From a virus, in the IMG/VR virus record IMGVR_UViG_3300009481_000012, positions 6,075-70,074 of that record: a stretch of 64,000 nt of DNA. One strand, written 5' to 3'. Below are positions 59,916 to 64,000 of this stretch, one piece after another. Numbering within the stretch: position 1 is the stretch's first letter; each line of letters opens with the position of its first letter. The translations under genes and the position numbers were made by a program. The notes under the pieces were generated by a model. It was not told the origin of the DNA. It was given only the letters and a program-made list of their open reading frames with translations, and ran no database searches.

Positions 59916-60012
59916 GTTTTCTCTTGCAGATTTTCAAAAAATCCCGTCTCGAGGCCGGGGGCAGGTAGCCAGCGCGGGCGGTAGGGGTCAAGTCCTACTA
60001 ACCGCCCCTTAT

Positions 60013-60633
60013 TTAATGCACGGTCTCGAACCAGCTGGCGATCACGTCAGGATTGGCGCGGAAGCTCGTGCCTTTGCTTCGCAACTCGATCCGCACTTGA
60101 CCGTTGCGGATGCTATCAATGAAACGGCTAGGGACAATCTTCCGGCAGACTGTCAAGGCGTCGAAGGTTACTTGATCGCCTTGCTTGGTTGCCTTGACCA
60201 TTGCTAGGTTAGGCATCTTCTCGGCAATGCGAGAGATCAGCGTGGCCTTGTCCCATGCAACCAAGCGATCACCGTTATGCTCGACAACAAACTGATCGCC
60301 TTGTTCGGTCAGGCCGTCACCGACACGGACGGTTGACTTGCCACGCTTGGCTTTGATCTCGGCAGGCTTCAAGCTAGGGAAGCAAGCACCGTCGATGCAA
60401 CGAATCATTTCACCCTTGCAGGAAAAGATTGTTAGCTCGCCCGTCCGATAATGCACCTTTGCCTCGGTTGCAATCTCGGCAAAGTCGGCACCCTTTTGGT
60501 TGCCAACAATGCCACCGACCATGAGGGCCTCAAACAATTCTCCGACGGCCCCTGCTGATTTTCTGGTAACGGCGTGGGGCTGGCTGGCTACTTGGGCGAA
60601 GCGGTTGTTTAAATCTTCAAAGCTGTTTAACAT
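60013..60633 (-). CDS. MvaI/BcnI-like (MutH-related) PD-(D/E)xK endonuclease
   Basis: GAVGELFEALM...NQKGADF...EAK...LTIFS; C-terminal GTSFR. Confidence 0.7.
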   Translation of the reverse strand: MLNSFEDLNNRFAQVASQPHAVTRKSAGAVGELFEALMVGGIVGNQKGADFAEIATEAKVHYRTGELTIFSCKGEMIRCIDGACFPSLKPAEIKAKRGKSTVRVGDGLTEQGDQFVVEHNGDRLVAWDKATLISRIAEKMPNLAMVKATKQGDQVTFDALTVCRKIVPSRFIDSIRNGQVRIELRSKGTSFRANPDVIASWFETVH

Positions 60634-60660
60634 CTGAATAACTCCCTAATTGATGATCTA

Positions 60661-60689
60661 AATATACTCTATCCCGTCATGGATTGCAA
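60661..60689 (-). promoter_or_regulatory. Sigma70 promoter for the endonuclease
   Basis: TTGCAA-17 nt-TATATT with A-rich UP element. Confidence 0.75.
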
Positions 60690-60738
60690 CCCCTAATTTG
60701 CATTTTTTTACGTTTTTTTGCACTAAATAACCCTTTAA

Positions 60739-60751
60739 TATCAATGACTTA
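60739..60751 (+). promoter_or_regulatory. IHF consensus site
   Basis: TATCAATGACTTA = WATCAANNNNTTR. Confidence 0.7.
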
Positions 60752-60829
60752 GGGCGCCCCCGGGCGTGACATTTATGCAACACTTTTGGGGTAAAATAGA
60801 AAAAAATGCGATTTAATGCGAATTAACTG

Positions 60830-60858
60830 TTTACATTAGCGGCGACATGGGCTATACT
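60830..60858 (+). promoter_or_regulatory. Sigma70 promoter (divergent from the endonuclease promoter)
   Basis: TTTACA-17 nt-TATACT, A-tract UP element. Confidence 0.8.
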
Positions 60859-60885
60859 CTCTACATGATCAAGAAAGGAAACATC

Positions 60886-61095
60886 ATGAAAAAGACAGTT
60901 ACCACTAACACCTTCGCTGGACCTATCGCTACTACTTTCGAATTGGTTAAGCATAACGTTGGGAACCCAAGCGAATACTGGGCCATCCTATTCGTTGAAA
61001 AAGAAGGGCAATCCCTTCAAAATAAATGGGGCGGATTCACCGTCCGAAACACTGGTAAGCCAGCGTATATGAAAAAAATCTGGAAGGAGCTATAA
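60886..61095 (+). CDS. Pre-early-type hypothetical protein
   Basis: AAAGGA RBS before MKKTVTT. Confidence 0.7.
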   Translation: MKKTVTTNTFAGPIATTFELVKHNVGNPSEYWAILFVEKEGQSLQNKWGGFTVRNTGKPAYMKKIWKEL

Positions 61096-61097
61096 AA

Positions 61098-61307
61098 ATG
61101 GCTTTCAAAAATAAAGCACTCGAAAATGCCATCAAGCAAATTGAGGCGCTCAATACTCCTGAAGCGATCATGGCTCGGCACAACGAGCTAATGATTGCAC
61201 GTTCTAAGGAAATGAACGCCAGCCCTCGCGGTCGTCACTTCATCGCGAAATATGGTGATCCAATTGAGCAATTAAATAAATTGCCAAAACGCGATTTTTT
61301 TGCCTAG
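61098..61307 (+). CDS. Pre-early-type hypothetical protein
   Basis: AAGGAG RBS. Confidence 0.75.
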   Translation: MAFKNKALENAIKQIEALNTPEAIMARHNELMIARSKEMNASPRGRHFIAKYGDPIEQLNKLPKRDFFA

Positions 61308-61313
61308 CGGGGG

Positions 61314-61344
61314 TTGACATTCGGTCCCACAATCCCCATATTAT
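61314..61344 (+). promoter_or_regulatory. Sigma70 promoter
   Basis: GGGG-TTGACA-17 nt-CATATT. Confidence 0.7.
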
Positions 61345-61376
61345 ATATATCGAAACAGTAACAAGGAATTAAAATT

Positions 61377-61532
61377 ATGATGACACGTAAACACTTTCAA
61401 ATTATCGCAGACGCTCTTTTAGAAGCTAACGCAACTATTGAGCAGGTTAAAATCATGGCCAAGGAATTGGCTTCAACTAACCCTCGTTTCGATAAAGATC
61501 GTTTCATTCTTGCCGCTATGAATTGGGAATAG
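61377..61532 (+). CDS. 51-aa protein of the phage NPRFD..RF family (not in ORF track)
   Basis: MMTRKHFQIIADALLEANATIEQVKIMAKELASTNPRFDKDRFILAAMNWE; AAGGA RBS. Confidence 0.8.
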   Translation: MMTRKHFQIIADALLEANATIEQVKIMAKELASTNPRFDKDRFILAAMNWE

Positions 61533-61536
61533 GGGG

Positions 61537-61565
61537 TTGACACCCTCACCCTTTTCTGGCATAAT
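61537..61565 (+). promoter_or_regulatory. Sigma70 promoter
   Basis: GGGG-TTGACA-17 nt-CATAAT with extended TG. Confidence 0.8.
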
Positions 61566-61599
61566 CTAACCATTGAAACAGCAACAAGGAATTAAACAA

Positions 61600-61779
61600 A
61601 TGTCAAATTCATATTACGCAATGCAAGACGCTAAAATGGCCGCCGCTCTTGATGGCTTAAATTGGGGCCGCATGGGTTCCGCTAAACAAGACAAATATAT
61701 TGCCGCTGAAATGGTCAAGCGTGGATATGTCAAACAATCATACATGGGTGCAGGCTCATGGAAATGGGGGAAAAAATAA
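61600..61779 (+). CDS. Hypothetical 59-aa protein
   Basis: AAGGA RBS before MSNSYYAMQ. Confidence 0.7.
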   Translation: MSNSYYAMQDAKMAAALDGLNWGRMGSAKQDKYIAAEMVKRGYVKQSYMGAGSWKWGKK

Positions 61780-61937
61780 TGGGAACGAATGAAGCCAGCC
61801 GCAACATGACACGCGAACAGCTACAGCGTGTCGATGCGACAATGTATCACTGGAAACAGGCCAACCCCAACGCCATGCATGGCGAATGGGAACGGGCTTG
61901 GGTTGCAACCGCTCAACAAATGGGATTCGTCAAATGA
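61779..61937 (+). CDS. Hypothetical 52-aa protein (not in ORF track)
   Basis: MGTNEASRNMTREQLQ...QQMGFVK; TAATG and ATGA couplings. Confidence 0.65.
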   Translation: MGTNEASRNMTREQLQRVDATMYHWKQANPNAMHGEWERAWVATAQQMGFVK

Positions 61938-62107
61938 AAAAACTAGCTAAAGTTAATGGACACCTTGCAATTTTATGTTTGGTGCTGGCAGGCATATCGT
62001 TCGCCGTCAATGGGGATAACTGGATTTGGACGCACTATGTCGGCGTGTTCGGTGCGGTAGTCTGTGCTGTGGGTTGCTATGCGGCTTGGTTAGCAGAGGA
62101 CTGCTAA
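61934..62107 (+). CDS. Small two-TM membrane protein
   Basis: MKKLAKVNGHLAILCLVLAG...; ATGA overlap. Confidence 0.65.
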   Translation: MKKLAKVNGHLAILCLVLAGISFAVNGDNWIWTHYVGVFGAVVCAVGCYAAWLAEDC

Positions 62108-62171
62108 CCTCTTGATTTTAAAGGGAAAATCGGCCCCGGGGCGCGATTTTGTCAATGATATCAATGACTTA
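62105..62171. repeat. Inverted IHF pair flanking a GC-rich palindrome
   Basis: TAACCTCTTGATT (62105-17, minus IHF), AAAATCG-GCCCCGGGGC-G-CGATTTT (62126-50), TATCAATGACTTA (62159-71). Confidence 0.8.
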
Positions 62172-62194
62172 GCTTATATGACGCGCCAGCTGGA

Positions 62195-62215
62195 TGCGAA
62201 TGATTCTCATTTGCA
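62195..62215. promoter_or_regulatory. Fur-box-like palindrome
   Basis: TGCGAATGATTCTCATTTGCA; 13/19 match to GATAATGATAATCATTATC. Confidence 0.45.
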
Positions 62216-62236
62216 ACACAACCCCGCTCGGCAGAG

Positions 62237-62251
62237 GAACAAAACGTGAAC
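62237..62251. promoter_or_regulatory. Alphaproteobacterial LexA (SOS) box
   Basis: GAAC-AAAACGT-GAAC = GAAC-N7-GAAC. Confidence 0.55.
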
Positions 62252-62324
62252 ATGAGTCATCCCGGGCGCGAAACATTGTTGCGCAAATCGACTAAACAAA
62301 ACAATAAAATGATGCAGAAAGTTA

Positions 62325-62353
62325 TTGACATTGGGGACAGGATGCACTATATT
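62325..62353 (+). promoter_or_regulatory. Sigma70 promoter
   Basis: TTGACA-17 nt-TATATT; near-duplicate of 62682-62710. Confidence 0.85.
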
Positions 62354-62363
62354 ATACATATAA

Positions 62364-62430
62364 ACAGAGAGATAGGCCTACTGGCGAACCGATGGGGTTC
62401 TAGATTTAACTGAATCGCCGCTCTCAGGAG
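62364..62430 (+). ncRNA. Candidate structured 5' leader, copy 1
   Basis: Long untranslated leader; shares ACAGAG, TACTGG-hairpin-TAG and ACTGAA with 63751-63822. Confidence 0.5.
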
Positions 62431-62439
62431 ACTAAAAAA

Positions 62440-62637
62440 ATGGAAAAGAATGTTTGGAAAATCGGAACCCCTTTTACTGATCACAACCAAATTCCTGCCC
62501 ATGTCGAGCAGGTAATTCTGGACAATGCAGACGCTCGATCTGCTTGGCAGATTCCACTGGATCAAATTAACGATTGGCTCTTTAACAATTGGGACGGCGA
62601 AGACTCCGATAACCCAGTTTGGTATGGTGTGGCTTAA
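62440..62637 (+). CDS. Hypothetical 65-aa protein
   Basis: AGGAG RBS. Confidence 0.75.
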   Translation: MEKNVWKIGTPFTDHNQIPAHVEQVILDNADARSAWQIPLDQINDWLFNNWDGEDSDNPVWYGVA

Positions 62638-62681
62638 ATGTCACACCCCCCAATAAATCGACATAAAAGGCAAATTAGCTA

Positions 62682-62710
62682 TTGACATTGGGGACGTAAA
62701 GCACTATATT
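62682..62710 (+). promoter_or_regulatory. Sigma70 promoter
   Basis: TTGACA-17 nt-TATATT. Confidence 0.85.
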
Positions 62711-62735
62711 AAGAGCATAACAAAGAGAGGTTGCT

Positions 62736-62912
62736 ATGACTAAAAAAGAAATCGAATACTATCAAATCAAGTGGAAAGAAGCCAACCAACAGGCACGCAA
62801 GCTGTGGGCGGTTTATAAGGAAAAGCCAACCAAGGCCAACCAAAAACTCGCAAGCCAAGCCTATGACAAAGCAGACGCTTTGATTGCCAAAATTGTAGGG
62901 GAGCCAGTATAA
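62736..62912 (+). CDS. Hypothetical 58-aa protein (not in ORF track)
   Basis: MTKKEIEYYQIKWKEANQQ...IVGEPV; GAGG RBS. Confidence 0.7.
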   Translation: MTKKEIEYYQIKWKEANQQARKLWAVYKEKPTKANQKLASQAYDKADALIAKIVGEPV

Positions 62913-63061
62913 TGCGACAAGGTATGCTGACATATCGCCAATGGGTCAATGATACCGACAAGGCCATTGACAAGTTTAAAATTGAAATGCAACGCTTGCA
63001 AGAGCGTTGGGATGAAATCGAGAAAAGAGAGAGGGAGCGAGTCGATGCAAGTGAAAACTAA
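62912..63061 (+). CDS. Hypothetical 49-aa protein (not in ORF track)
   Basis: MRQGMLTYRQWVNDTDKAI...DASEN; TAATG coupling, GGAG RBS. Confidence 0.65.
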   Translation: MRQGMLTYRQWVNDTDKAIDKFKIEMQRLQERWDEIEKRERERVDASEN

Positions 63062-63203
63062 AAGCGTAGCCAACTATATGGCAATTCGATATGAAGTAAA
63101 GTCGAGAAACGAAGACAACCTTGACAAAGCAGAAAAGCTGGCACTCAAAGCAATGAGCTGGTACGAAATCGCATCTGGAATGAAGGACGAAAATGATGAG
63201 TAA
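63045..63203 (+). CDS. Hypothetical 52-aa protein
   Basis: GGAG RBS before MQVKTKSVANY. Confidence 0.65.
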   Translation: MQVKTKSVANYMAIRYEVKSRNEDNLDKAEKLALKAMSWYEIASGMKDENDE

Positions 63204-63321
63204 TGAAATGAAAAACGCTTTGCGTGATATGGCAAAACACCCCTTCCGCACGTTCGGAGAATTTGTCGCACTGTTCGGAATGTTCTTTGTAGGTTTTCTA
63301 GCTTTGATTGCGTTTGCATAG
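63193..63321 (+). CDS. 42-aa membrane protein (not in ORF track)
   Basis: MMSNEMKNALRDMAKHPFRTFGEFVALFGMFFVGFLALIAFA; AAGGA RBS. Confidence 0.6.
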   Translation: MMSNEMKNALRDMAKHPFRTFGEFVALFGMFFVGFLALIAFA

Positions 63322-63419
63322 GGGTATAAAAATGATTGTCAGATCAAAAGTAAAAATCTCAACACTCAGCAATCGACGCAATTTTGCTTGCTTGGTTTGG
63401 AAGTCGAAAAACAAAGATA

Positions 63420-63693
63420 AATCAAAGGGTTAGAGGGCCCCGGGGGACAGCCCGGGGCTGACCGCGCCAGTAGTAAGTGTAAAAATTAGCGCCAGTAGTA
63501 AGTGTAAAATTTAAGTATGAAATTTAAGTAGTAAATATGAGTTGACCCGGGGGCGGCTAAGTCCTTGATTTTAAAGGGTTTTATGTGTGAAAAAAATGCA
63601 AAAAAGTGAAAAAAAATGAAATTTAAGTAGTTGATTTTAAAAGATAAATTCATGGTCAAAAACGCCGATTCGGTCTTTAATATCAATGACTTA
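63420..63693. repeat. Non-coding island: four IHF sites, three CCCGGG cores and a 21-bp direct repeat
   Basis: IHF matches at 63420(+), 63558(-), 63624(-), 63681(+); GCGCCAGTAGTAAGTGTAAAA at 63464 and 63489. Confidence 0.8.
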
Positions 63694-63706
63694 CAGCCAC
63701 ACCGAT

Positions 63707-63735
63707 TTGACTTATGGAGAGTTTTAGTATAGAAT
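63707..63735 (+). promoter_or_regulatory. Sigma70 promoter
   Basis: TTGACT-17 nt-TAGAAT. Confidence 0.8.
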
Positions 63736-63750
63736 ACACATATTAAATCA

Positions 63751-63822
63751 ACAGAGCGACTTTACTGGAGCCGTCAAACGGCTAGGGTAAAAACCACTGA
63801 AAAGGTCGCTCACTTTTAGGAG
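63751..63822 (+). ncRNA. Candidate structured 5' leader, copy 2
   Basis: GAGCGAC/GTCGCTC closing stem, GCCGT-CAA-ACGGC and GGT-AAAA-ACC hairpins, then AGGAG. Confidence 0.55.
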
Positions 63823-63830
63823 TTTAAAAT

Positions 63831-64000
63831 ATGGCTAAAATTGAAAACACCATTCGTCAGATCACCGCTTCCGATGTTCAGTTTCTAACTGAAAATGAGT
63901 GCCGAGATGTAATAGGTGTTCTTGCTATCAAGCAAGAGACTATAAGTGGGCGAGAGGTTGATATTCTACAGGCTTGCGAGGATCGTGTGTTCGATGTAGA
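63831..64000 (+). CDS. Hypothetical protein (3' truncated)
   Basis: AGGAG RBS; MAKIENTIRQITASDVQF... open to the window end. Confidence 0.7.
   Translation, partial: MAKIENTIRQITASDVQFLTENECRDVIGVLAIKQETISGREVDILQACEDRVFDV

What the first reader, a model, noticed from the sequence alone, without database searches (positions are those of the whole stretch)
62364..63822. Repeated structured 5' leader RNA with compensatory changes
Seen: two leaders, each between a strong promoter and an AGGAG RBS, share one layout. Copy 1 (62364-62430): ACAGAGAG..TACTGG-C-GAACC-gatgg-GGTTC-TAG-attta-ACTGAA..CTCTC. Copy 2 (63751-63822): ACAGAGCGAC..TACTGG-A-GCCGT-caa-ACGGC-TAG-ggtaaaaacc-ACTGAA..GTCGCTC. Stem sequences differ but still pair, while junction bases are identical. 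Inference: a cis-regulatory RNA, protein-binding/anti-termination element or small ribozyme. I do not recognise it as a known family.
Basis: partly seen in the sequence, partly recalled or inferred. Interest (0 to 1): 0.75.

Follow-up and report, generated by a model that had tools for sequence, protein, structure and literature searches.

The report
Portable junction RNA of marine phages
A small folded RNA module with an invariant core, absent from the RNA family catalogue, sits at the start (sometimes the end) of the first genes expressed by uncultured ocean phages related to T5; what it does is untested.

Summary
Both leaders are units of one RNA module: closing helix P1, ACUGG+N, hairpin P2, UAG, then a short linker (copy 1) or a third mini-hairpin P3 (copy 2), ACUGAA, and P1'.

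I found about 30 distinct units in 14 viral and 11 metagenome contigs. The core hardly varies, though the searches mostly required it. All three helices covary: 92% of cells paired, 13 of 15 pairs changed on both sides, slid controls 38-46%. No Rfam 15 family matches.

The module is portable:
- Most units lie just after strong sigma70-type early promoters and 23-30 nt before a start codon.
- Some are nested inside each other's P2, arranged in tandem, possibly circularly permuted, intercistronic, placed after a stop codon with a U-tract, or promoter-driven with no gene behind.
- Different genes follow them, and some orthologous leaders lack the unit.

The host phage is T5-like, and the region is its Dmp-containing pre-early region.

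Function is unknown. My best guess (about 0.35) is a junction read by conserved host machinery that protects or boosts early phage RNAs. A new self-cleaving ribozyme, a ligand aptamer and a put-like antiterminator remain open.

The parts
62325..62353 (+). Early promoter of unit A (TTGACA-17-TATATT)
   Evidence: One search gives 11 of 12 consensus matches. The near-identical promoter at 62682-62710 has a short leader without the unit.
62364..62425 (+). Unit A, linker type with no P3. P1 is 62367-71/62421-25 plus 62375-77/62417-19. ACUGG 62380-84, J = C 62385, P2 62386-62400, UAG 62401-03, linker 62404-08, ACUGAA 62409-14.
   Evidence: Orthologous units in L005, L006, L030, L032, L033 and L016 have covarying P2 and P1.
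62426..62637 (+). AGGAG (62426-30) and a 65-aa ORF (62440-62637) with no family
   Evidence: Homologues follow type-A units in 7 of 10 related loci; 3 have a short leader without the unit.
63707..63735 (+). Early promoter of unit B (TTGACT-17-TAGAAT)
63754..63811 (+). Unit B, a three-way junction. P1 63754-63/63802-11, ACUGG 63764-68, J = A 63769, P2 63770-82, UAG 63783-85, P3 63786-95 (GGT-AAAA-ACC), ACUGAA 63796-63801.
   Evidence: Model R2 scores it at 75.7 bits. Covariation.
63818..63998 (+). AGGAG (63818-22) and the start of an acidic ~90-aa protein gene (63831 to the contig end)
   Evidence: All 15 related loci that hold upstream sequence carry a unit before this gene.
62088..62119 (+). 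Terminator-like hairpin plus T-run that closes the preceding transcription unit
62158..62171 (+). ATATCAATGACTTA box upstream of the unit-A promoter. It fits the IHF-site consensus as I recall it.
   Evidence: The same box lies at 60738-60751 and 63680-63693, and before unit-bearing promoters in L016, L035 and L036.
63680..63693 (+). The same box upstream of the unit-B promoter

Best explanation
SHOWN. The two leaders are copies of a portable RNA module of about 55-70 nt. Three helices with free sequence meet at a junction whose roughly 14 bases are nearly invariant: ACUGG+A/C, UAG (rarely UAA) and ACUGAA (rarely ACUGCA). P1 is the closing helix. P2 can be any length and may itself carry another unit. 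P3 can be replaced by a 5-6 nt linker. The module lies on the sense strand of the early, Dmp-containing region of uncultured marine T5-like phages, and in at least four other groups of viral contigs that share no detectable protein with them.

INFERRED, my committed mechanism. The function resides in the junction alone, acts at the RNA level, and does not depend on which gene follows. The junction is a docking site for a conserved host component. Candidates are an RNA-degrading or RNA-processing enzyme, the ribosome, or RNA polymerase.

Phages place the module at the boundaries of their first transcripts. Most units begin a few nucleotides from the transcript 5' end and stop just before the Shine-Dalgarno sequence. 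Some sit at the 3' end as the terminator stem. Placed there, the module would shield or boost these RNAs during take-over, or titrate the factor when it is arrayed or expressed alone.
For: Structure and covariation:
- 20 units aligned to model R2 show 92.0% of cells paired and 13 of 15 pairs changed on both sides. None of 500 shuffles reached this, and slid controls gave 37.7-45.8%.
- An ungapped MAFFT alignment of 11 type-B units, not fitted to any model, gave 92.1% paired and 9 of 15 pairs, with slid controls of 30.9-43.6%.

Specificity:
- I searched 99 loci (823 kb), of which 98 were fetched for an exact match to one of two core patterns and one (L147) for a TAC- start only. Only 7 hits in 6 loci reached E<=1, and those are the ones with stems.

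Gene independence:
- Units precede a 65-aa ORF, an acidic ~90-aa ORF, an HTH protein, a 78-aa ORF, a basic 49-aa peptide and two unrelated ORFs in L065.
- 3 of 10 type-A gene homologues have a short leader without the unit.
- L032 keeps the unit but only a 7-codon remnant behind it.
- L036 site 1 is a promoter plus two nested units with no ORF.

Function in the junction:
- Units nest through P2/P1 (L016 x3, L036 x2) and occur in tandem.
- P3 is absent in 5 of 29 distinct units.
- L054 probably shows a permuted unit entered through P3.

Position at transcript boundaries:
- 17 of 27 sites have a strict sigma70-type promoter whose -10 ends 19-29 nt before ACUGG.
- 21 of 27 have a start codon 23-30 nt after ACUGAA.
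- In L016c, L128 and L210, P1 is followed by a U-tract. L128 and L210 lie directly after a stop codon and before the next promoter. L016c lies 8 nt after a stop codon, between two cistrons.

No phage-encoded reader:
- No protein family is shared between the window clade and the L065, L054, L128 or L210 fragments.

Early, T5-like setting:
- TerL is about 40% identical to Demerecviridae.
- A neighbouring gene is a T5 Dmp homologue, 28% identity, E 5e-15. Dmp lies in T5's first-step-transfer DNA.
Against: - No factor is identified and nothing was tested at the bench.
- An invariant junction with free helices fits a ribozyme or a ligand aptamer equally well.
- The very regular distance to the start codon argues for a cis role in translation rather than titration.
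- Many genomes hold only one or two units, which is few for a sponge.
- The contigs are fragments (3-62% complete), so a phage-encoded reader could lie outside what I hold.
- Core invariance is partly built in, because most units were found with patterns that require the core. The model-based and protein-anchored searches did not require it. Among their hits, the only core substitutions were ACUGCA in L034 (found by the model) and UAA.
- The alignment was fitted to the model's structure.
Confidence: 0.35

Rival explanations
1. A new class of small self-cleaving ribozyme. It would trim phage early transcripts at their 5' leaders, between cistrons and after stop codons, leaving 5'-OH or 2',3'-cyclic phosphate ends that escape end-dependent decay.
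For: - About 14 invariant junction bases sit among three freely covarying helices.
- One helix is optional, and the module tolerates insertions in P2.
- L054 probably shows circular permutation. As I recall, permutation is typical of hammerhead and twister ribozymes.
- The genes that follow are unrelated, and some positions are intercistronic or post-gene.
- The units occur in unrelated phage contigs with no shared protein.
Against: - No known ribozyme family matches, so this would have to be a new class, which is rare.
- The core does not contain the hammerhead motifs as I recall them.
- Russian-doll nesting of three units is not known for ribozymes.
- Type A lacks a whole helix.
- No read-level end data were available. 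The RNA-library data were contigs only.
Confidence: 0.2
2. A ligand-binding aptamer, that is a phage riboswitch for a global signal such as a nucleotide, an alarmone or a defence second messenger. Ligand binding would stabilise P1. That would free the Shine-Dalgarno sequence in leaders, or complete a terminator where P1 is followed by a U-tract.
For: - Three-way junctions with a conserved core and variable stems are the usual aptamer look.
- The units sit in 5' UTRs that end 0-15 nt before the Shine-Dalgarno sequence.
- In 9 of 16 leaders the pyrimidine-rich P1 3' strand can pair weakly with the Shine-Dalgarno sequence when P1 is open: 3-4 bp, -1.9 to -3.4 kcal/mol.
- Three units have P1 directly followed by a U-tract.
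- Nucleotide-metabolism genes lie nearby: a Dmp homologue, PPK2, and a weak below-cut-off match to nucleoside deoxyribosyltransferase.
Against: - The alternative pairing is weak and is absent in L003B and L005B.
- The genes controlled are unrelated small ORFans.
- Nested arrays, a stand-alone unit without a gene and a permuted form are unusual for riboswitches.
- Orthologous genes do without the unit.
Confidence: 0.15
3. A put-like processive antiterminator. The nascent module would bind the transcribing host RNA polymerase and carry it through downstream terminators of the early region.
For: - There are two copies per genome, each about 60-70 nt and just downstream of early promoters, with differing stems. 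By the passages I read of PMC9378689, HK022 putL and putR have the same layout and act without any phage protein.
- Terminator-like modules separate the early transcription units.
- The stand-alone L036 site 1 lies upstream of such a module and the dmp-like gene.
- No phage reader protein was found.
Against: - The architecture differs. put is two side-by-side stem-loops forming a V with a triplex, whereas this is a junction closed by P1.
- In three cases the unit itself looks like a terminator, with P1 followed by a U-tract.
- Units sit immediately before start codons at a fixed distance, which antitermination does not require.
- The only clear + strand intrinsic terminator near the window copies lies upstream of unit A's promoter, not downstream of a unit.
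Confidence: 0.15
4. A passive end-structure. The module would simply be a stable fold that hides the 5' end, or forms the 3' terminal hairpin, and slows host RNases, with no specific partner.
For: - P1 recruits the conserved first transcribed bases (AACAGAG...), leaving only a few unpaired 5' nucleotides.
- 3'-terminal examples carry U-tracts.
Against: - A plain hairpin would do the same job. This does not explain about 14 near-invariant unpaired bases kept across unrelated phages.
- Predicted stability is unremarkable, with z from -0.6 to -2.9.
Confidence: 0.1
5. A DNA-level operator. The direct repeats ACTGRA ... ACTGAA just downstream of promoters would be half-sites for a DNA-binding regulator.
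For: J is A in 18 of 29 units, which gives ACTGGA and ACTGAA direct repeats at about +15 to +55.
Against: - Spacing varies from about 29 to more than 100 bp.
- Three intervening helices covary, which DNA binding does not explain.
- Every unit I placed relative to flanking genes lies on their sense strand.
- Units also occur far from promoters.
Confidence: 0.03

Closest known systems
HK022 putL/putR antiterminator RNAs (PMC9378689; passages read)
   Same: Both are about 70-nt RNAs. Both come as two copies per phage, placed downstream of early promoters. In both, the copies have related but different sequences. Neither has a dedicated phage protein.
   Different: put is two adjacent stem-loops forming a V with a triplex, not a junction closed by a helix. 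I could not compare sequences: I found no put match among the Rfam results, and the paper's alignment is in supplements I could not see. The present module also occurs after genes, nested, and with U-tracts.
Small self-cleaving ribozymes (hammerhead, twister, pistol, hatchet, twister-sister)
   Same: A compact multi-helix junction with about a dozen invariant unpaired bases. Free helices and optional stems. Permuted forms. Frequent in phage DNA, as I recall.
   Different: No hit to any Rfam ribozyme model. The junction strands (6, 3 and 6 nt: ACUGGN, UAG, ACUGAA) do not match the hammerhead core as I recall it. Cleavage is untested.
Three-way-junction riboswitch aptamers (e.g. the purine class)
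   Same: P1-closed three-way junction in a 5' UTR, with a conserved junction and covarying stems.
   Different: No Rfam match. No conserved loop-loop contact. No consistent expression platform. The genes behind it are unrelated. Units nest and can stand alone.
Modular nested early-leader RNAs of T4-like cyanophages
   Same: Uncatalogued folded modules at the very start of early transcripts of ocean phages, nested and swapped between relatives, and not tied to the downstream gene.
   Different: Different phage group. I could not see their sequences, so identity of the motif is untested. My pattern scans of IMG/VR returned only 8 contigs outside the window's clade with true units, which argues against a large shared family.
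5'-terminal stabilising stem-loops and intrinsic terminators
   Same: Position at the transcript 5' end with few unpaired bases, or a stem followed by a U-tract at the 3' end.
   Different: Those need no conserved unpaired sequence. Here the junction bases are the conserved part.

Membership tests
Any Rfam 15 family | Covariance-model score at or above the family's gathering score | tested here: not met
   Zero matches over the whole window. At E<=10 over 62100-64000 there are only PYLIS_6 (inside the ORF), F6 (63431-63464, minus strand) and ST7-AS1_2 (minus strand, 18.3 bits against a cut-off of 50). In 8 related loci at E<=0.1 the only hits are a tmRNA and tRNAs, none on a unit.
HK022 put RNA | Two adjacent stem-loops (V shape, first stem a triplex) with no closing helix | tested here: not met
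   Units are closed by a covarying P1 of 5-10 bp and have a three-way or two-way junction. put architecture is taken from PMC9378689 passages.
HK022 put RNA | Located downstream of early promoters, in two copies | tested here: met
   17 of 27 sites have a strict promoter 19-29 nt upstream of ACUGG.
HK022 put RNA | Suppresses termination by binding the RNA polymerase beta' zinc-binding domain | not testable with these tools
   Needs transcription assays.
Hammerhead ribozyme | Conserved core (CUGANGA, GAAA and UH, as I recall it) around three stems | tested here: not met
   Junction strands are ACUGG+N, UAG and ACUGAA. There is no Rfam hammerhead hit.
Self-cleaving ribozyme (any class) | Site-specific self-scission | not testable with these tools
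   The RNA-library data available were contigs, which cannot show RNA ends.
Riboswitch | An expression platform that alternates with the aptamer | tested here: inconclusive
   Weak pairing between the P1 3' strand and the Shine-Dalgarno sequence in 9 of 16 leaders, none in L003B or L005B. A U-tract follows P1 in 3 of 27 sites.
Riboswitch | Association with genes of one pathway | tested here: not met
   Downstream genes are unrelated ORFans.
Intrinsic terminator | G+C-rich stem followed directly by a U-run | tested here: inconclusive
   Seen for L016c, L128 and L210 only. The two window copies do not fit: unit A has no U-run, and unit B has only UUUU two bases after P1.

The most novel reading that the evidence does not exclude
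The module is a new class of small catalytic or sensing RNA. The boldest form is a self-cleaving ribozyme that T5-like and other marine phages place at both ends of their first transcripts, so that the RNAs carry decay-resistant termini during host take-over. A riboswitch for a host-state or defence signal is the close second.
Probability: 0.2. Interest if true: 0.9.

Novelty: new member of a known kind. Interest (0 to 1): 0.7.

Why it matters
Orphan RNA motifs with an invariant junction, free helices and portable, permutable placement have repeatedly turned out to be ribozymes, riboswitches or binding sites for core machinery.

This one is short, well defined, and found in 20 of 24 listed marine, aquatic and subsurface sequencing runs from 13 studies. 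It sits on the very first transcripts of T5-like phages, the stage at which the phage disarms its host. Standard assays can therefore address it directly.

Whatever its function, it shows that these phages build early expression cassettes from interchangeable parts: an IHF-like box, a promoter, the RNA module and a Shine-Dalgarno sequence. A compact natural leader or terminator module could also be useful as a genetic part.

Tried and rejected
- **Rfam:** nothing relevant.
- **blastn of 60000-64000 against GenBank phages:** no match. tblastn of the type-B protein against the same collection: no match.
- **Model R1 (4 type-B units)** was too sequence-specific. It missed type A with default filters, and with filters off it mixed true units with noise.
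- **MAFFT** could not align the types structurally.
- **The model-made alignment A10** placed type-A P2 as an insertion, so I did not build a third, general model. Type A is documented by pattern and script only.
Metagenome records could not be searched whole.
- **R2 on T5, My1, JSF10 and IW18:** no hit at E<=1. The first-look filter may miss weak ones.
- **Genome-contig scan for the CTT...TAG sub-type:** 2 hits, neither with stems. This tests only one flank variant.
- **C-type pattern:** only the 3 contigs already known.
- **Co-occurring protein:** none found, but the contigs are fragments.
- **RNA libraries**. Contigs from four runs overlap the leaders and the genes behind them. Examples are 62390-62537 and 63760-64000, and two contigs carry variant unit halves as loose ends. 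They are contigs, so they show neither transcription for certain nor RNA ends. Stretches without cover mean nothing.
- **Shine-Dalgarno sequestration as a switch:** weak and inconsistent.
- **Thermodynamic z-scores** are unremarkable.
- **L054 parsing:** R2 reads it as two tandem units at 21-23 bits. I prefer the nested-permuted reading because it gives good helices and is the centroid fold, but only one such element is known, in 4 near-identical contigs.
- **Borderline hits I judged to be chance:** L009, L012, L023, L024, L026, L172, the L155 group, and four minus-strand window hits.
- **Paper searches** for the core words and for marine phage junction motifs found nothing on this motif.
Full report
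**Setting**

The window is bases 6075-70074 of a 70,074-base IMG/VR virus record, judged 62% complete. Structural genes run on the minus strand up to about 60.6 kb, including a terminase, portal and tail proteins.

From about 60.65 kb to the contig end there is a plus-strand block of small ORFans. Six sigma70-type promoters drive it.

The large terminase is about 40% identical to those of Demerecviridae, the T5-like phages. In relatives the same block holds a homologue of T5 Dmp, with 28% identity and E 5e-15. In T5, Dmp lies in the first-step-transfer, pre-early DNA. So the finding sits in the equivalent of a T5 pre-early region.

The phage is common in the sea. Of 24 runs listed, 20 hold the stretch or part of it, from 13 studies of marine, aquatic viral or subsurface metagenomes.

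**The observation**

Both copies are as described. Each follows a strong promoter and ends just before AGGAG and an ATG.

The shared layout occurs twice in the window against 0.09 expected, and none of 100 shuffles gave two or more.

Three refinements:
- Copy 2's spacer is itself a 3-bp hairpin with an AAAA loop.
- Copy 2's closing helix is 10 bp.
- Copy 1's closing helix has an internal loop.

Folding energy alone is only mildly better than shuffles, with z = -1.44 and -2.88.

**Relatives**

An adjacent 206-aa protein led to 11 related viral contigs. A relaxed core pattern hit L003 once, and L005, L006 and L013 twice each. All hits were on the expected strand and at the orthologous places. 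One further hit, in L009, was chance.

Pattern scans of IMG/VR gave:
- L016, among 10 stretches of which 6 were chance.
- No new type-B contig, among 7 stretches of which 3 were chance.
- L054, L067, L084, L103 and L065, among 79 stretches.
- L128 and L210, among 97 stretches.

A protein-anchored scan of metagenome contigs with the gene that follows copy 2 gave 12 loci. Eleven carry units. The twelfth, L039, has no upstream sequence.

A scan of one genome per prokaryote species for one sub-type gave 2 hits, both without helices. Four cultured Demerecviridae gave nothing with model R2.

**Anatomy**

Across 29 automatically parsed distinct units, plus a few I parsed by eye, the plan is: P1, ACUGG, one base, P2, UAG, P3 or linker, ACUGAA, P1'.

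Variation in those 29 units:

| Element | Counts |
|---|---|
| Single base after ACUGG | A 18, C 11 |
| Second junction strand | UAG 27, UAA 2 |
| P3 position | hairpin of 3-4 bp in 24, linker of 5-6 nt in 5 |
| Third junction strand | ACUGAA 28, ACUGCA 1 |

A second ACUGCA sits in the permuted reading of L054.

Loop sequences are not conserved.

Covariation is strong. In an ungapped MAFFT alignment of 11 type-B units, 92.1% of cells pair and 9 of 15 pairs change on both sides. Slid controls give 31-44%.

In 20 more diverse units aligned by model R2, 92.0% of cells pair and 13 of 15 pairs change on both sides. None of 500 shuffles reaches any of the measures, and slid controls give 38-46%. That second alignment is fitted to the model and so leans towards it.

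As a specificity control, R2 was run over 99 loci (823 kb). Of these, 98 were fetched for an exact match to one of the two core patterns and one (L147) for a TAC- start only. R2 reports 7 hits at E<=1, exactly the ones that have helices.

Ascertainment caveat: most units were found with patterns that demand the core, so its invariance is partly built in. Two searches did not demand it. One was the protein-anchored test: 15 of 15 loci with sequence upstream of the type-B gene carry a unit. The other was the model searches. Among their hits, the only core substitutions were ACUGCA in L034 (found by the model) and UAA.

**Portability**

This is the main new result.

1. *Nesting.* In L016 a roughly 300-nt leader holds three units nested like Russian dolls, the P2 of one being the P1 of the next. 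A fourth unit, with UAA, follows. L036 has a nested pair, and a nested pair plus a tandem unit.

2. *Probable permutation.* In L054 and three near-identical contigs, an outer unit's P3 is a long helix. At its tip it carries a unit whose P1 is capped by a loop. The centroid fold agrees. R2 can also read the region as two weak tandem units.

3. *Varied positions.* Among 27 sites, many of them orthologous:
   - 17 have a strict promoter whose -10 ends 19-29 nt before ACUGG.
   - Five more share a weaker promoter-like sequence that I saw by eye.
   - 21 have a start codon 23-30 nt after ACUGAA.
   - L016c lies between two cistrons and is followed by U7.
   - L128 and L210 lie directly after a stop codon. 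P1 is followed by a U-rich tract, then the next promoter.
   - L054 lies between a stop codon and a promoter.
   - L036 site 1 is a promoter and two nested units with no ORF behind.
   - L032 keeps a type-A unit in front of a 7-codon remnant.

4. *Gene independence.* Unrelated ORFs follow the units. Three of 10 homologues of the type-A gene (L003, L029, L040) have a short leader in which the first transcribed bases run straight into the ribosome-binding site. In the window itself, the promoter at 62682-62710 is nearly identical to unit A's promoter but has such a short leader.

5. *No shared protein.* The held fragments of L065, L054, L128 and L210 share no protein family with the window's clade.

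**Reading**

The function must reside in the junction, act at the RNA level, and not depend on the neighbouring gene or, as far as can be seen, on a phage protein. Four points support the RNA level: sense strand only, helices covary, lengths vary by non-multiples of three, and UAG is kept.

Gene independence argues against a classical gene-specific riboswitch or an autoregulatory operator.

The 5' strand of P1 is made from the conserved first transcribed bases. In most leaders the RNA 5' end is therefore almost flush with the fold. In three cases P1 plus a U-tract looks like the transcript's 3' end.

I commit, at about 0.35, to a docking module for conserved host machinery, placed at the boundaries of the first phage transcripts to protect or boost them, or to titrate the factor when arrayed or expressed alone.

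The rivals are close:
- **New self-cleaving ribozyme (0.2).** The core, permutation and promiscuous context fit. Nesting and the helix-less type A fit less well.
- **Ligand aptamer for a global signal (0.15).** The alternative pairing of the P1 3' strand with the Shine-Dalgarno sequence exists but is weak and inconsistent.
- **put-like antiterminator (0.15).** Copy number and position match the description of putL and putR in PMC9378689 (passages). The architecture differs.
- **Passive end-structure (0.1).**
- **DNA operator (0.03).**

**Comparison with the known**

No Rfam family matches. Two full-text searches found no paper on this core. It fails the defining architecture of put and the core of the hammerhead as I recall it.

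Earlier notes of this scan describe modular, nested early-leader RNAs in T4-like cyanophages. The theme is the same. I could not test whether any module is shared.

I file it as a new orphan structured-RNA family, a known kind, with an unusually clear and portable architecture. It is a strong candidate for bench work.

Noticed in passing
window 60738-60751, 62158-62171, 63680-63693; also L016 5259-5272 and 5402-5415, L036 ~2817-2830: The box ATATCAATGACTTA (or TATCAACAACTTA) recurs upstream of early promoters, often 10-15 bp before the -35 element. It fits the IHF-site consensus as I recall it.
   Followed up: partly
window 62110-62127 and 63553-63582 versus 60730-60751 and 63672-63693: A ~20-nt element (TAAGTCnTTGATnTTAAAGGG) and its reverse complement flank A-rich spacers between transcription units. 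In some places it follows a hairpin like a terminator. It is conserved in L016 and L036. Its role is unknown.
   Followed up: no
window 63466-63511: Two tandem copies of a ~21-25-nt repeat (GCGCCAGTAGTAAGTGTAAAA), followed by repeated AAATTTAAGTAG words, just after a G+C-rich hairpin at 63436-63460.
   Followed up: no
window 62682-62735: A promoter nearly identical to unit A's promoter but with a short leader and no unit. It is a natural unit-less control next door.
   Followed up: partly
L210 824-1298 (-): An alphaproteobacterial-type (permuted, two-piece) tmRNA gene on a viral contig that carries a unit, at 121 bits. This hints that at least this phage infects, or integrates in, Alphaproteobacteria.
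   Followed up: no
L036 684-755 and 770-850 (+); L005 1218-1288 (-): tRNA genes lie next to the early region of the window's relatives.
   Followed up: no
L016 4329-4961, L016 3862-4329, L036 1398-1910, L005 806-1066 (-): The early region encodes a PPK2 polyphosphate kinase (E 2.8e-43), a T5 Dmp homologue and a DUF6899 protein. This is nucleotide metabolism in a pre-early setting.
   Followed up: partly
L016 5943-6092: The intercistronic unit L016c is followed by a very basic 49-aa peptide with a weak DUF7230 match (E 2e-4, below the cut-off).
   Followed up: no
L005 (-) 1990-1725; L065 (-) 86-22: Other long leaders behind early promoters hold different hairpins. The L065 one may be a degenerate unit (AATGG ... 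CCTGAA with a 6-bp closing helix).
   Followed up: no
L034 301-338: A type-B unit otherwise identical to the window's has ACTGCA instead of ACTGAA. The same substitution is seen in the inner unit of L054.
   Followed up: partly
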